Assembly (NCBI GenBank): GCA_028282585.1
Contig: JANQHR010000116.1
Coordinates: 1 to 45,287 of the forward strand
DNA length: 45,287 nucleotides
Origin: Bacteroidales bacterium
GTDB lineage: Bacteria > Bacteroidota > Bacteroidia > Bacteroidales > UBA12077
Reading direction: 5' to 3'
Below the pieces are notes generated by a model, which made no database searches, had not been told where the DNA came from, and worked only from the letters and a program-made list of their open reading frames with translations. A program made the position numbers and the translations under genes. This document shows positions 15,229 to 18,771 of the stretch, in pieces. Numbering within the stretch: position 1 is the stretch's first letter; each line of letters opens with the position of its first letter.

Positions 15229-17544
15229 GTGTACGATTATTTAAAAGATTTAAACGAGGTTCAGAAAGAAGCTGTAATAAACTACCAGGGAGCATCTTTG
15301 GTAATTGCGGGAGCAGGATCGGGAAAGACAAGGGTACTTACTTACAGAATAACGCATTTACTTGCTAACGCTGTTCCTGCGTATAAAATTCTTGCTCTAA
15401 CTTTTACGAATAAAGCAGCCGCCGAAATGAAGTCGCGTATTGCTAAAATGGTAGGTAATGATGTTGCGCGTTTTCTATGGATGGGTACATTCCATTCTAT
15501 ATTTGCCCGTATTTTGAGAACAGAAGCTGAACATCTGGGCTACACTTCGAATTATACTATTTATGACACGATCGATTCTAAGAATCTAGTAAAAAAGATT
15601 ATCAAGGAATTAGGTTTAGATGACAAAACATATAAACCCGGAGAAATCTATGGCCGTATTTCCAGTGCCAAAAATAATCTGATAAGTGCTAAAGCATATG
15701 CAAGTAATCAGCAAGTAATCGTTCAAGATCAGAAAAGCAAGCGTCCGCGAACAGCAGAAATCTACATGATTTACGCTAACAGGTGTAAAAAAGCGGATGC
15801 AATGGACTTTGACGATCTACTTTTAAATACAAACATTCTATTTCGCGATTTCCCTGATGTGTTGGAAAAATACCAGGATAAATTTCAATTCATTTTAGTT
15901 GATGAGTACCAGGATACAAATTTCTCACAATATCTTATTATAAATAAGTTAAGTGCAAAAAATAAAAATATTTGCGTAGTTGGTGATGATGCTCAAAGTA
16001 TTTATGCTTTTCGTGGAGCTAAAATTGAAAATATCCTGAATTTCAGAAATGATTACCCGGGATATCAATTGTATAAACTAGAACAGAACTACCGATCAAC
16101 CAAAACTATTGTTGAGGCGGCAAATAGTTTAATTAAAAAGAATAAAGAACAAATTCCTAAAAAAGTATATTCTCAGAATGAAATTGGCGAGAAAATCAAA
16201 GTAATAGAAGCTGAAACCGATAAGGATGAGGCTTACTCGGTAGCCAGAGTAATCGAGGACACTGCTATAGATCGTGGATATGATTATAAAGATTTTGCCA
16301 TTTTATACAGAACCAACGCTCAATCAAGAAGTTTTGAGGAAGCTTTGCGTAGATTTAATATACCATATAAAGTATTTGGAAGTATTTCTTTTTACCAAAG
16401 AAAAGAAATAAAAGATTTATTAGCATACTTCCGATTAGCTGTAAATCAGAAGGATGACGAAGCCTTATTACGTATTATTAATTATCCCACCAGGGGAATT
16501 GGAAACACAACCATTTCTAAAATAGAAACTTACTCAAATAACCAAAACCTGAATATTTGGGAGACTCTTCTAAAAATAGATAAAATACAAATTGGTTTAA
16601 ATACCGGTACTATTAATAAATTAACCAAGTTTAGAAATTTGATTCAGGGTTTTGTGGAAGACATAAAGAGTTTGGATGCATATGATGCTGCTATGGAGAT
16701 GGCTAAAGAATCAGGTATTTTAAATGAACTCAACAATCCTGAATCGCATGAAGATCAAACCAAATTTGAAAATATTGAGGAGTTACTAAACGGGATAAAA
16801 GAATTTGTTGATGAAAATGATGATCCTGATTTTTTCCCTTCTTTGGATAAGTTTATGGAGAATGTTGCTTTATTAACTAATCAGGACAATGAAAAAGATG
16901 AAGATTTTAATAAAGTAACCATCATGACTATTCACTCTGCTAAGGGTTTGGAATTTAAATATGTTTTTCTTGCTGGTTTGGAGGAGGAACTATTTCCATC
17001 GGCAATGGCTTCTGGTACTCAAAAAGAATTGGAGGAAGAAAGAAGGTTATTTTATGTGGCTTTAACAAGAGCTGAAGAATCTGCCATGATTTCTTTTGCA
17101 AAAGAAAGATATAAATGGGGAGTTCCAACATCATGCCGTCCGAGCAGATTTATTAAAGAAGTTGATGAGCAATATTTAGATTTACCTGATTCATTCTACG
17201 ACCAACCAACCACACCATTTGGCGATAAGCTTTTTGAAGACTCATCGAAACCTCGATTTGAAAGAAAAAAACCGGGCATAAATGCTACCATACCACAGGT
17301 AAATAAAAAGTTAGTTAAGTTAAGTGAAGCAAATGGAAAATCAAGTAATTCAAATGTTGATTTTAAACCTGATGATCCTTCCTTAATTGAAGAAGGTATG
17401 ATCGTTCGTCATGCAAAATTCGGATTAGGGGAAATAATAATAATAGAAGGATCAGAACCAAATAAAAAAGCAAAGGTTAATTTCGAAGTAGTTGGAGAAA
17501 AACAACTTCTTCTGAAGTTCGCCAAATTACAGATCGTGAATTGA
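15229..17544 (+). CDS. pcrA: ATP-dependent DNA helicase UvrD/PcrA
   Basis: GTG start; AGAGSGKT, DEYQD, GDDAQSIY, LEQNYRS, TIHSAKGLEF, EERRLFYVALTRA; C-terminal Tudor-like VRHAKFGLG. Confidence 0.95.
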   Translation: MYDYLKDLNEVQKEAVINYQGASLVIAGAGSGKTRVLTYRITHLLANAVPAYKILALTFTNKAAAEMKSRIAKMVGNDVARFLWMGTFHSIFARILRTEAEHLGYTSNYTIYDTIDSKNLVKKIIKELGLDDKTYKPGEIYGRISSAKNNLISAKAYASNQQVIVQDQKSKRPRTAEIYMIYANRCKKADAMDFDDLLLNTNILFRDFPDVLEKYQDKFQFILVDEYQDTNFSQYLIINKLSAKNKNICVVGDDAQSIYAFRGAKIENILNFRNDYPGYQLYKLEQNYRSTKTIVEAANSLIKKNKEQIPKKVYSQNEIGEKIKVIEAETDKDEAYSVARVIEDTAIDRGYDYKDFAILYRTNAQSRSFEEALRRFNIPYKVFGSISFYQRKEIKDLLAYFRLAVNQKDDEALLRIINYPTRGIGNTTISKIETYSNNQNLNIWETLLKIDKIQIGLNTGTINKLTKFRNLIQGFVEDIKSLDAYDAAMEMAKESGILNELNNPESHEDQTKFENIEELLNGIKEFVDENDDPDFFPSLDKFMENVALLTNQDNEKDEDFNKVTIMTIHSAKGLEFKYVFLAGLEEELFPSAMASGTQKELEEERRLFYVALTRAEESAMISFAKERYKWGVPTSCRPSRFIKEVDEQYLDLPDSFYDQPTTPFGDKLFEDSSKPRFERKKPGINATIPQVNKKLVKLSEANGKSSNSNVDFKPDDPSLIEEGMIVRHAKFGLGEIIIIEGSEPNKKAKVNFEVVGEKQLLLKFAKLQIVN

Positions 17545-17621
17545 TTTTGATCTAATACAATTTTAATAAGCAACATTTTAAATTTGGTTATTTTTTTTAT
17601 TTATAAGAAAGAATATTGAAA

Positions 17622-17638
17622 TGCCTGCCTGATCAGGT
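17622..17638. repeat. REP-like GC-rich short palindrome
   Basis: TGCCTGCCTGATCAGGT; inverted near-copy at 18926-18944 (reverse complement TGCCTGCCTGAAATCAGGT). Confidence 0.55.
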
Positions 17639-17786
17639 GATAGGTTGGGAAATAGATTTTATTTGAATTACTTTAAGTCGTTGGTTTAAAATATTTATAT
17701 GCATATAAAAGTATAATAGAAACAAATCTACACCTCAATTTAATAGTTACTTTATACTTAATTATGAATAGCTTAATACACTTTCC

Positions 17787-17961
17787 CTTTTTTGGCTTGA
17801 TCCAAAAAAAGTTTCAAAAAAAATCAAGACAAAACGATGCTTCTTCGCTCTTTGCGATAAGCAAATAATTCCAGACAAAGTAAGCAAGCTCCTTCGTCGG
17901 AATTCTAAAGCTTATTACATCCACCCTACCCCACAGCTCGCCGTTTTGTCTGACCCACGCT
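17787..17961. ncRNA. Highly structured non-coding element (candidate ncRNA or non-autonomous repeat) with H-type pseudoknot
   Basis: TTTTTTGG(17788-95)/CCAAAAAA(17802-09) with loop CTTGAT pairing ATCAAG(17823-28); GACAAAACG(17828-36)/CGTTTTGTC(17942-50); nested ATAAGC/GCTTAT, AATTCC/GGAATT, GACAAAG/CTTCGTC; GC-richer than flanks; no long ORF. Confidence 0.65.
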
Positions 17962-18127
17962 TAATAATCCACATCTGAAAACTTCTTGCTTATTACTTAT
18001 CATAGTAGAAGTATAATGCAAACCTTTAGAAATTAATCTTCTATTAATTCATATCTTCAATTGTATCTATTATAAAGTCATTTGTTTACTTAAATTTTCA
18101 AGCTGTAGTATATTATCTTTTTAAATC

Positions 18128-18159
18128 TTTGATTGCTAAATCAAAATAGACTATTTTTG
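18128..18159 (+). promoter_or_regulatory. Housekeeping-sigma promoter for DUF4290-murA
   Basis: TTTG (18128-31), 20-nt spacer, TATTTTTG (18152-59), ending 21 nt before the ATG. Confidence 0.75.
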
Positions 18160-18180
18160 CACAAAATCACAATGTAAATT

Positions 18181-18771
18181 ATGGAATATAATACAAGCAG
18201 AAAAAAACTCGTATTACCTGAGTATGGAAGAAATATCCAAAAAATGGTTGAACTAACGAAGGCTGAGCCGGATAAAGAAAAAAGAAACAAAATGGCTCAA
18301 GCAATTATTGCGATTATGGGTAATATGAATCCTCACCTTAGAGATATTGCTGACTTTAAACACAAATTATGGGATCACCTTGCAATTATTTCTGAATTTA
18401 ATCTGGATATTGATTCTCCATATGATCCTCCTGTAATTGAAACCTTACAAGAAAAACCAGAATCTGTTCCTTACAATAATAAAGATGCCAAGTTTAAGCA
18501 TTATGGGCAAACCATTGAAAAAATGGTTAAGGTTGCTATTGATATGGAAGATGGCGAATTAAAGGAAATTTTAATTCAGCTGATAGCTAATCACATGAAA
18601 AAAAGCTATTTAACCTGGAACAAGGAAGCTGTAGCAGATGAACTTATTTTTAAAGATTTAAAGGTTTTATCTGGAGGTAAAATTGATTTAAATATCGAGG
18701 AAACAACCTTAACTGAAACCAAAGATATTCTTGCTAAAAATAAACGAAGAAGGATCCAGAGAAAGAAATAA
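18181..18771 (+). CDS. DUF4290 domain protein
   Basis: MEYNTSRKKLVLPEYGRNIQKMV...HKLWDHL; the usual Bacteroidota neighbour of murA. Confidence 0.88.
   Translation: MEYNTSRKKLVLPEYGRNIQKMVELTKAEPDKEKRNKMAQAIIAIMGNMNPHLRDIADFKHKLWDHLAIISEFNLDIDSPYDPPVIETLQEKPESVPYNNKDAKFKHYGQTIEKMVKVAIDMEDGELKEILIQLIANHMKKSYLTWNKEAVADELIFKDLKVLSGGKIDLNIEETTLTETKDILAKNKRRRIQRKK

What the first reader, a model, noticed from the sequence alone, without database searches (positions are those of the whole stretch)
17787..17961. About 175-nt non-coding element with a pseudoknot and a long nested multi-helix arm
Seen: (a) stem TTTTTTGG/CCAAAAAA whose 6-nt loop CTTGAT is fully complementary to ATCAAG 13 nt past the stem, an H-type pseudoknot; (b) an adjoining long-range helix GACAAAACG/CGTTTTGTC enclosing about 105 nt; (c) inside it a small TCGC/GCGA hairpin, a three-segment arm (ATAAGC/GCTTAT, AATTCC/GGAATT, GACAAAG/CTTCGTC) and an unpaired C-rich strand CCACCCTACCCCAC, which is G-rich on the minus strand. 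It is GC-richer than the flanks and ends well before the DUF4290 promoter. Inference: this much ordered pairing suggests selection on RNA or ssDNA structure. It could be an unannotated ncRNA, a ribozyme-like motif or a non-autonomous mobile element. It resembles dispersed intergenic elements I recall from other Bacteroidota genomes, but I cannot assign a named family. This is the best candidate for an undescribed system in the window.
Basis: partly seen in the sequence, partly recalled or inferred. Interest (0 to 1): 0.8.

Follow-up and report, generated by a model that had tools for sequence, protein, structure and literature searches.

The report
Structured repeat module carried by MITEs
The flagged stretch is a real, strongly folded non-coding element, one lone copy of a repeat family spread through Bacteroidota genomes and carried by small transposon relics; no database searched names it and its job is unknown.

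Summary
Window 17784-17984 (+) folds better than 200 of 200 shuffles on both strands. It has no Rfam match.

It belongs to a dispersed family. BLAST finds it in 15 of 37 genomes of the genus, at 1-10 copies. A covariance model finds it in 49 of 151 sampled genomes of the order. A pattern scan finds it in Cyclobacterium, Negadavirga, Mucilaginibacter, Cytophagales and Bacteroidales MAGs.

The 5' hairpin, the loop-to-downstream pseudoknot, the long-range helix and the three-segment arm all covary. The small TCGC/GCGA hairpin does not.

The window copy is an insertion. The closest relative has about 8 nt where the window has about 527.

In sister species the module sits inside roughly 730-850-bp ISL3-derived MITEs with 22-23-nt terminal inverted repeats and 8-bp target duplications. 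Elsewhere it stands alone or occurs as inverted doublets.

No conserved neighbouring gene, promoter, terminator or RNA data were found. G-U pairs are not enriched over A-C mismatches, so the acting strand, and whether it acts as RNA or ssDNA, is unresolved.

Best reading, about 50%: a cis-acting, structure-specific module of non-autonomous mobile DNA. The main rival is a hitch-hiking structured ncRNA. I rate it a new variant of a known kind, of moderate to high interest.

The parts
17584..18110 (.). Segment absent from the orthologous uvrD-DUF4290 spacer of the closest relative. It is inserted DNA; the boundaries are approximate.
   Evidence: in G046 the two flanking matches lie 8 nt apart (L091 1422 and 1431), against window 17583 and 18111. 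Searches give the alignment and the empty-site sequence. The parts outside the core match nothing else in the genus.
17784..17984 (+). Core repeat module. 17784-17965 is the covariance-model match; homology with subfamily A copies runs on to about 17984.
   Evidence: BLAST gives 78-88% identity to copies in sister species; model R1 scores 196.2 bits, E 5e-44, and this is the only credible match in the window.
17787..17811 (+). Hairpin P1: a T-rich 5' arm, the loop CTTGAT and an A-rich 3' arm.
   Evidence: In one search, helix 1 is 97.6% paired and 7 of 9 pairs change on both sides.
17796..17828 (+). Pseudoknot: P1 loop CTTGAT (17796-17801) pairs with ATCAAG (17823-17828).
   Evidence: the pseudoknot was not part of the model, yet it is 93.5% paired. 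Column pair 20:94 reads UA 44, CG 18, UG 3; pair 19:95 reads AU 59, GC 5. Variants TTGAC/GTCAA, TTGGC/GCCAA and GTGTTC/GAACA are visible.
17828..17950 (+). Long-range helix P2 (17828-17836 with 17942-17950), enclosing 105 nt.
   Evidence: inverted repeat I11. helix 3: 97.3% paired and 9 of 9 pairs change on both sides.
17857..17915 (+). Three-segment variable arm (17857-62/17910-15, 17867-72/17899-904, 17874-80/17892-98). It is missing in minimal copies of about 105 nt.
   Evidence: helices 6-7. (helices 4-5): 18 of 19 pairs change on both sides. Minimal copies are shown.
17916..17941 (+). Unpaired C-rich strand with the conserved motifs ATTCAC-like and GCTCGC.
   Evidence: Searches show the conserved columns; the P2 interior averages 40% C against 17% G in 73 copies, and 49 of 73 have at least 2 runs of CCC.
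17951..17965 (+). Conserved 3' tail, family consensus GCC-NN-CGC.
   Evidence: alignment tails.
15229..17544 (+). Upstream gene, a UvrD-type helicase. Context only.
   Evidence: PF00580, E 1.8e-84.
18181..18771 (+). Downstream gene, DUF4290. Context only.
   Evidence: PF14123, E 1.4e-73.

Best explanation
Window 17784-17984 is a solo copy of a Bacteroidota-wide dispersed repeat module. Minimal copies are about 105 nt; this one is about 200 nt because it carries an optional three-segment arm.

As a single strand the module folds into four parts: a T/A-rich hairpin (P1); a pseudoknot between the P1 loop and a segment 11-13 nt downstream; a long-range helix (P2); and a C-rich unpaired interior bearing conserved motifs.

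The module travels as part of non-autonomous mobile DNA. In this genus it lies inside ISL3-derived MITEs of roughly 730-850 bp, with 22-23-nt inverted repeats and 8-bp target duplications. In other lineages it lies inside other composite repeats, sometimes as two inverted copies.

The window copy arrived by insertion into the uvrD-DUF4290 spacer and has since lost any recognisable ends.

Most likely mechanism (inferred): the folded single strand, DNA or read-through RNA, is the cis-acting, structure-specific part of the element. A trans-acting factor would recognise or process it. That would explain why pairing and a few unpaired motifs are kept while everything around them is exchanged.

Shown: repetition, insertion polymorphism, covariation, and the TIR/TSD of one carrier.
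Inferred: that the fold serves the element rather than the host, the acting strand, and the partner.
For: - Repeat family. 15 of 37 genomes of the genus have it, at 1-10 matches each and often at contig ends. 49 of 151 genomes of the order have it, with up to 17 matches. A pattern scan gave 53 stretches in named Cyclobacterium, Negadavirga, Mucilaginibacter, Cytophagales and Bacteroidales records.
- Insertion polymorphism. The uvrD-DUF4290 site is empty in G046, and 24 of the 27 relatives with both flanks have spacers of about 115 nt or less. The second own-genome copy (C146:24615-24793) is missing at the same site in G004, G011, G042 and G018.
- Carrier. Subfamily A has 23-nt TIRs that are 83% complementary (I1). 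Both TIRs were found in 7 of 13 copies examined, and 6 of those 7 have flanking 8-mers identical at 6 or more of 8 positions.
- Autonomous relative. A 1424-bp element with the same ends encodes an ISL3 transposase (PF01610, E 6e-47).
- Structure. Covariation in P1, the pseudoknot, P2 and the arm.
- Inverted doublets. Found in 6 of 41 loci against 1 of 41 controls, and by eye in 4 Mucilaginibacter copies.
- No fixed neighbour. 66 neighbouring ORFs at 29 diverse loci include no transposase or recombinase and no shared gene family apart from common repeat domains. Orientation relative to neighbours is mixed.
- Strand symmetry. G-U and A-C are equally rare in paired columns, 11 against 12. This is expected if both strands or DNA are constrained.
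Against: - No enzyme is identified.
- ISL3 transposase presence does not track the module. 15 genomes have both, 36 of 151 have ISL3 and 49 of 151 have the module.
- Genomes with many copies (G094, G101, G137, G133) show no ISL3 match.
- Y1 transposase loci do not carry the module: 0 of 16.
- The window copy and the C146 copy show no clear TIR or TSD.
- Conserved unpaired motifs and a strongly strand-asymmetric C-rich interior fit a transcribed RNA at least as well as a DNA site.
- DDE transposases such as ISL3 do not need intrastrand pairing, so the fold is unexplained by the one carrier that was identified.
Confidence: 0.5

Rival explanations
1. It is a family of structured non-coding RNA genes or RNA domains with a host or element function. 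Candidates are a regulatory RNA that uses the C-rich unpaired strand as a seed, or a protein-binding or catalytic RNA. On this reading it is merely spread by mobile elements.
For: - Multi-helix junction plus pseudoknot with strong covariation.
- Conserved unpaired motifs.
- The P2 interior is 40% C against 17% G on one strand in 73 copies.
- The variable-length arm is tolerated.
- The own-genome copy C146 is followed by a hairpin and a T run.
- Multicopy sRNA families do exist in Bacteroides, for example FopS (passages read).
Against: - No promoter-like or terminator-like consensus lies inside the conserved part (and reading of alignments 51 and 83).
- Orientation relative to neighbours is mixed.
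- There is no G-U excess on the + strand: 11 G-U against 12 A-C in A4, and 7 against 22 in A3. The within-genus bias even points to the opposite strand from the one with the C-rich loop.
- No Rfam hit.
Confidence: 0.28
2. The hairpin and pseudoknot complementarity is simply two abutted ISL3 transposon ends: a right end, an 18-bp spacer and a left end, as at a tandem-MITE or circle junction. It would act as double-stranded transposase binding sites, not as a fold.
For: - In subfamily A, the P1 5' arm plus loop matches the right TIR (TGGATCAAGCCAAAAA against TGGATCAAGTTGAAAA, 81%).
- The ATCAAGAC segment matches the left TIR (84%).
- Both form a 13-nt inverted repeat that is 92% complementary, with 18 nt between the arms (D1, D7, I17, I22).
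- The piece upstream of P1 is the 3' end of the transposase gene plus its TIR.
Against: - Across the order the loop and its partner drift in sequence but stay complementary (variants). This is not how two sites for one protein behave.
- P1's own stem covaries.
- The inverted repeats of the two other ISL3 elements where terminal repeats were found differ: GGTTCATGG... and GGCTCTAT....
- There is no link between ISL3 presence and the module.
Confidence: 0.1
3. It is the atypical REP/REPIN sequence of the Bacteroidetes-specific RAYT-like Y1 transposases (subclass 2.6 of Quentin et al. 2018).
For: - Y1_Tnp genes are found in 47 of 49 module-bearing genomes against 64 of 102 without the module (my tally).
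- Inverted doublets occur in some lineages.
- The pairing is strand-symmetric.
Against: - 0 of 16 Y1 loci (gene plus or minus about 1.5 kb) from module-rich genomes carry the module. The best matches, E 0.1-0.9, are generic terminator hairpins.
- The small GC-rich palindromes that pepper these repeats are better REP candidates.
Confidence: 0.07

Closest known systems
REP / REPIN (BIME) elements mobilised by RAYT transposases
   Same: Dispersed, intergenic and non-coding. Pairing is kept by compensatory change. Some copies form inverted doublets. Persistence within a lineage is long, and pairing is strand-symmetric.
   Different: This module is far larger and more complex (hairpin, pseudoknot, long-range helix and arm, against a 20-40-nt palindrome). 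No GTAG-type foot was seen. It was not found next to Y1 transposase genes (0 of 16 loci).
MITEs derived from insertion sequences (here ISL3-derived; comparable in kind to Correia, ERIC or RUP elements, named from recall)
   Same: Subfamily A has 23-nt TIRs and 8-bp TSDs, is 730-850 bp long, has no ORF, carries a remnant of the parent transposase gene and has a matching autonomous ISL3 element.
   Different: The conserved structured core is not part of the parent IS. It recurs inside unrelated carriers and alone in other orders. The window copy has no recognisable TIR or TSD.
Multicopy structured RNAs of mobile elements (HEARO/omega-RNA of IscB, TnpB-associated RNAs, IS110 bridge RNA; named from recall)
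   Same: A 100-250-nt multi-helix fold with a pseudoknot. Many orphan copies are dispersed in a genome, linked to transposable DNA.
   Different: No copy was found beside an IscB, TnpB, IS110 or any other recurring gene (66 ORFs at 29 loci). There is no Rfam match. No variable guide-like segment was seen at a fixed end.
Integron attC sites
   Same: Recognised by fold rather than sequence. In one genome (G094) copies sit between small cassettes of toxin/antitoxin and Rhs-orphan type genes.
   Different: The AAC/GTT core triplets are not conserved in P2. Most copies are solitary among housekeeping genes. No integrase link was seen.

Membership tests
Any Rfam 15 family | Match to a curated covariance model at its gathering score | tested here: not met
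   The whole window gave 0 matches. Region 17500-18250 at E up to 10 gave only a MIR530 chance hit of 16 bits against a gathering score of 85. Ten related loci gave only a tRNA. Three loci in E-value mode gave nothing on the element.
IS-derived MITE (ISL3 type) | Terminal inverted repeats and 8-bp target-site duplication at the copy's ends | tested here: inconclusive
   Met for subfamily A in sister species: the TIRs are 23 nt and 83% complementary, and 6 of 7 copies with both TIRs have matching 8-mers. For the window copy only a weak 21-nt, 76% inverted pair (17600-17620 and 18056-18076) and an uncertain T-rich duplication were seen.
IS-derived MITE (ISL3 type) | Related autonomous element with the same ends and a transposase | tested here: met
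   L175 has unit ends 1424 bp apart, ORFs of ISL3 type and PF01610 at E 6.4e-47. It lacks the core. The transposase appears as separate ORFs, possibly broken.
REP/REPIN-RAYT system | Repeat copies flank the single-copy Y1 (RAYT) gene | tested here: not met
   0 of 16 Y1 loci had a credible model match with filters off. The best E values were 0.1-0.9, on generic hairpins.
REP/REPIN-RAYT system | Inverted doublet architecture | tested here: inconclusive
   6 of 41 loci have a downstream inverted hairpin-pseudoknot partner under a strict motif, against 1 of 41 controls. It is also seen in 4 Mucilaginibacter copies. It is absent in the window.
IS200/IS605 relic or TnpB/IscB guide-RNA scaffold | At least some copies adjoin tnpA, tnpB or iscB | tested here: not met
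   66 ORFs flanking 29 diverse copies include no such family.
Integron attC | Conserved AAC...GTT core triplets in the outer helix; arrays next to an integrase | tested here: not met
   P2 varies freely, for example GCAAAATG/CATTTTGC and GAAAGAAAT/ATTTCTTTC. Most copies are solitary.
FopS/GibS multicopy sRNAs of Bacteroides | Single-stranded 5' seed followed by a terminator hairpin; a family deposited in Rfam | tested here: not met
   The architecture described in PMC11697453 (passages read) differs from this one. There is no Rfam match.
Retron ncRNA | Inverted repeats a1/a2 around msr-msd with an adjacent reverse transcriptase gene | tested here: not met
   A long-range helix around a variable hairpin is present, but no reverse transcriptase is among the 66 neighbouring ORFs.
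Structured non-coding RNA (generic) | Covarying helices | tested here: met
   The caveats are that A4 and A5 are fitted to the model (except the pseudoknot) and that kin are not independent.
Structured non-coding RNA (generic) | A transcript of defined strand and ends | not testable with these tools
   No RNA run holding this DNA was listed.

The most novel reading that the evidence does not exclude
The module is a new class of functional folded nucleic acid of Bacteroidota mobile DNA. It would be an RNA or ssDNA device of about 105 nt (hairpin, pseudoknot, long-range helix and a C-rich or G-rich loop) that partners with a so-far unrecognised enzyme. It could act, for example, as a guide, bridge or recognition scaffold, or as a self-processing element. 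That would explain why unrelated carriers in at least three orders all keep it, and why one ISL3 lineage has ends that copy its hairpin-pseudoknot region.
Probability: 0.2. Interest if true: 0.85.

Novelty: new variant of a known kind. Interest (0 to 1): 0.62.

Why it matters
Bacteroidota are poorly served by current catalogues of repeats and structured RNAs. This is a well-supported fold that includes a pseudoknot confirmed on an alignment not fitted to it. It is present in roughly a third of sampled genomes of an order and in cultured genera such as Mucilaginibacter and Cyclobacterium. It is absent from Rfam and was not found in the literature searches run here.

If the fold serves transposition, it points to a structure-reading mobilisation route outside the known REP-RAYT and IS200/IS605 systems. 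If it is an RNA, it is a new multicopy family.

Practically, it breaks assemblies, since many copies lie at contig ends, and it marks recent insertions between close relatives.

Tried and rejected
- **Group II intron.** GTGYG-like words about 45 nt downstream of the core in sister copies suggested this. It was dropped: there is no Rfam intron hit, no reverse transcriptase ORF, and the word lies inside a long hairpin arm.
- **Leader or riboswitch of DUF4290.** Dropped: the copies have unrelated neighbours and mixed orientation.
- **RAYT/REP link.** Dropped; see the rivals.
- **ISL3 dependence of the whole family.** Dropped: 15 genomes have both, against about 12 expected by chance from 36 and 49 of 151.
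- **Shared ISL3 ends.** The inverted repeats of the two other ISL3 elements where terminal repeats were found differ.
- **Remnant of the 148-aa gene that three relatives carry at this site.** No tblastn hit.
- **Weak homology of the window's flanks to other carriers.** The best local scores correspond to 15-19 matched bases and are marginal.
- **Second, inverted copy in the window.** None found.
- **Phages and plasmids.** No match.
- **Expression.** No RNA holder was listed.
- **Earlier findings of this scan.** Nothing found.
- **-1 frameshift signal (A6G plus pseudoknot).** Dropped: the A-run varies among copies and no ORF spans it.
- **Internal Bacteroidota-type promoter.** Sought by eye in both orientations; none was convincing. 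The sigma-70 scan gave 7 sites against 4.0 expected and no terminator.

Full report
**What is in the window.**
- Hairpin P1 spans 17787-17811 with loop CTTGAT.
- The complementary ATCAAG lies at 17823-17828.
- Helix P2 pairs 17828-17836 with 17942-17950 and encloses 105 nt.
- A three-segment arm spans 17857-17915.
- A C-rich run lies at 17921-17934.
- GC content is 0.39-0.41, against 0.22-0.23 in the flanks.

The stretch folds better than all 200 dinucleotide shuffles on the + strand (-37.4 kcal/mol, z -3.76). The - strand gives -53.8 kcal/mol, z -3.31. Rfam gives nothing at gathering scores for the whole window. At E up to 10 on 17500-18250 it gives only a chance miRNA hit. The flanking genes are a UvrD-type helicase and a DUF4290 protein.

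**It is a repeat.** BLAST finds only this copy in the window's own genome. In the genus, 15 of 37 genomes have 1-10 copies at 70-92% identity, many at contig ends. Homology with the window is limited to about 17782/17787-17984. I fetched 40 copies with their flanks.

A covariance model (R1: 181 positions, 37 pairs) was built from 26 copies (alignment A3). It finds the module in 49 of 151 evenly drawn genomes of the order, with 1-17 matches per genome and lengths of 57-280 nt. It also finds two more copies in the window's own genome, C146:24615-24793 and C1:25763-25951.

An exact pattern for one hairpin variant hit 53 stretches. They lie in Bacteroidales MAGs, Cyclobacterium, Negadavirga, Mucilaginibacter, Cytophagales MAGs and one MAG labelled Chlorobiaceae. 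No match was found in phage or plasmid collections.

**The fold is conserved by compensatory change.**

| Alignment | Copies | Cells paired | Slid controls | Pairs changed on both sides |
|---|---|---|---|---|
| MAFFT (A2) | 28 | 92.0% | 36-52% | 16 of 45 (controls 1-6) |
| Model-aligned (A4) | 33, many genera | 95.6% | 44-58% | 33 of 37 |
| Model-aligned (A5) | 74 distinct | 95.1% | not listed here | 36 of 42 |

- RNAalifold independently recovers P1 and the arm on A2.
- The pseudoknot was not in the model, so the model alignment is not biased towards it. It is 93.5% paired, and one position splits into U-A 44, C-G 18 and U-G 3. Variants TTGAC/GTCAA, TTGGC/GCCAA, GTGTTC/GAACA and TTGTC/GACA are visible.
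- The small TCGC/GCGA hairpin is not supported (59.8% paired).
- The arm is optional. Minimal copies of about 105 nt keep P1, the pseudoknot, P2, a C-rich interior and the tail motif GCC-NN-CGC.
- Caveats: copies are kin, model-fitted alignments lean towards the model, and shuffle controls are not probabilities.

**The window copy is inserted DNA.** In the closest relative (G046, DUF4290 98% identical) the helicase and DUF4290 flanks are 8 nt apart where the window has about 527 nt, 17584-18110. Of the 27 relatives with both flanks aligned:
- 24 have spacers of about 115 nt or less.
- 3 have about 610-670 nt. In the one I examined (G014, L106) this spacer holds an unrelated 148-aa gene.

The parts of the insert outside the core match nothing else in the genus. 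No second, inverted copy is present in the window.

The second own-genome copy is likewise present in G046 but missing at the same convergent-gene spacer in G004, G011, G042 and G018. It is followed there by a hairpin and a T run.

**Carriers.** In one subfamily of sister-species copies, similarity extends from about -190 to +600 around the core.
- The unit ends in 23-nt inverted repeats that are 83% complementary.
- Both repeats were found in 7 of 13 copies examined. Unit sizes are 734-853 bp.
- Six of those 7 have flanking 8-mers identical at 6-8 of 8 positions. The seventh is offset by one base.
- A 1424-bp element with the same ends encodes an ISL3-family transposase (PF01610, E 6.4e-47).
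- The first 124 nt of the MITE are that gene's 3' end plus its inverted repeat. The core is therefore antisense to the transposase direction, and it is not part of the autonomous element.
- By HMM, the window's own genome holds only two ISL3 C-terminal fragments, on contigs C38 and C136 and not on the window's contig C63.

Other lineages use other carriers:
- a unit starting about 95 nt upstream of P1 in G137;
- a unit of about 450 nt in G101 that shares only P1 and the pseudoknot;
- a unit of about 520 bp in Mucilaginibacter with two inverted cores.

A strict motif finds an inverted hairpin-pseudoknot partner downstream in 6 of 41 loci, against 1 of 41 controls.

**An odd resemblance.** In the genus, the 5' arm and loop of P1 resemble the ISL3 right end, and the ATCAAGAC segment resembles the left end (81-84% over 16-19 nt). 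Together they form a 13-nt inverted repeat with an 18-nt spacer (D1, D7, I17, I22). That is the geometry of abutted transposon ends.

It does not explain the family as a whole:
- The loop and its partner drift but stay complementary across the order.
- The inverted repeats of the two other ISL3 elements where terminal repeats were found differ.
- ISL3 presence (36 of 151 genomes) and module presence (49 of 151) overlap in 15 genomes, against about 12 expected by chance.

I leave the origin of this resemblance open.

**Search for a partner or function.**
- The 66 ORFs flanking 29 diverse copies are mostly housekeeping or unknown genes, include no transposase or recombinase, and share no gene family apart from common repeat domains.
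- Orientation is mixed. The upstream gene reads towards the element in 36 of 56 scorable cases, and the downstream gene does so in 34 of 59. This is a mild preference for gene 3' ends.
- Y1 transposase genes occur in 47 of 49 module-bearing genomes against 64 of 102 others. But 0 of 16 Y1 loci carry the module, and genome size confounds the tally.
- Quentin et al. 2018 (PMC6006769; passages read) report atypical REP-like structures around a Bacteroidetes Y1 subclass. The small GC-rich palindromes inserted at varying places in these copies are more likely candidates for those structures.
- FopS sRNAs of Bacteroides (PMC11697453; passages read) have a different architecture.
- Literature searches found no description of this element. 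These searches cover only the held open-access library.

**Which strand, RNA or DNA?**
- In paired columns, G-U and A-C are equally rare in the wide alignment (11 against 12).
- In the within-genus MAFFT alignment A-C exceeds G-U (22 against 7; roughly ten against two independent events by my reading). This hints at the - strand or at DNA-level constraint.
- The unpaired interior, by contrast, is strongly asymmetric. It is 40% C against 17% G on the + strand in 73 copies, and 49 of 73 have at least two CCC runs. That implies a strand-specific role.
- No RNA run was listed.
- The strand question stays open.

**Verdict.** The finding is real and is not ordinary spacer. It is a solo, end-less copy of a conserved structured module that non-autonomous mobile elements of Bacteroidota carry.
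- I put about 50% on a cis-acting, structure-read module of mobile DNA.
- About 28% on a hitch-hiking structured ncRNA.
- About 10% on abutted ISL3 ends acting as duplex sites.
- About 7% on a RAYT-type REP.

It is a new variant of a known kind (structured dispersed repeats) and is testable in cultured carriers.

Noticed in passing
L083, L084, L075, L063, L065, L072, L085, L088, L198 (various positions); window 17621-17645: Short GC-rich palindromes of the CCTGCC...GGCAGG type are inserted at different places inside copies of the module and its carriers. They look like a separate REP-like mini-repeat of these genomes. The window's insert has a related CCTGATCAGG palindrome.
   Followed up: no
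L164 (G094:C110:1-6500), L165: In one genome the module sits about 25 nt upstream of, and antisense to, each of several ORFs. These ORFs begin with the same Rhs-core-like peptide and then diverge, which looks like orphan polymorphic-toxin cassettes. ParE-like and PIN-domain genes lie nearby. The module is part of a 240-290-nt duplicated junction.
   Followed up: partly
L175 2647-4070 (G003:C9): A 1424-bp ISL3-family insertion sequence whose transposase appears as separate ORFs (66-78 aa and 248 aa) and is possibly broken. Its ends are those of the MITE subfamily.
   Followed up: partly
L106 838-1284; also L109, L114: Three relatives (G014, G007, G022) have a spacer of about 610-670 nt between the helicase and DUF4290. 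In G014 (L106) it holds a 148-aa gene with a signal-peptide-like start and no Pfam match. The window has no trace of this gene.
   Followed up: partly
window 17706-17723 and 18006-18023: An 18-nt direct repeat (83% identical), 300 nt apart, brackets the core inside the inserted segment. It may mark an older nested insertion.
   Followed up: no
G000:C146:24615-24793 and G000:C1:25763-25951: Two further, diverged copies of the module in the window's own genome were found only by the covariance model (141 and 51 bits). The first lies between convergent acetate-kinase-family and thioesterase genes.
   Followed up: partly
L066 (G017:C521) 75-249 and 621-804; L074 790-970 and 1338-1514: Two copies of the module lie in the same orientation about 550 nt apart on one contig. 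They may be tandem carriers.
   Followed up: no
L206, L211, L247 (Mucilaginibacter), upstream of the module: Another conserved repeat (GTCATTGCGAGGTACGAAGCAATCC-like) adjoins the module's carrier in 3 of the 4 copies aligned.
   Followed up: no
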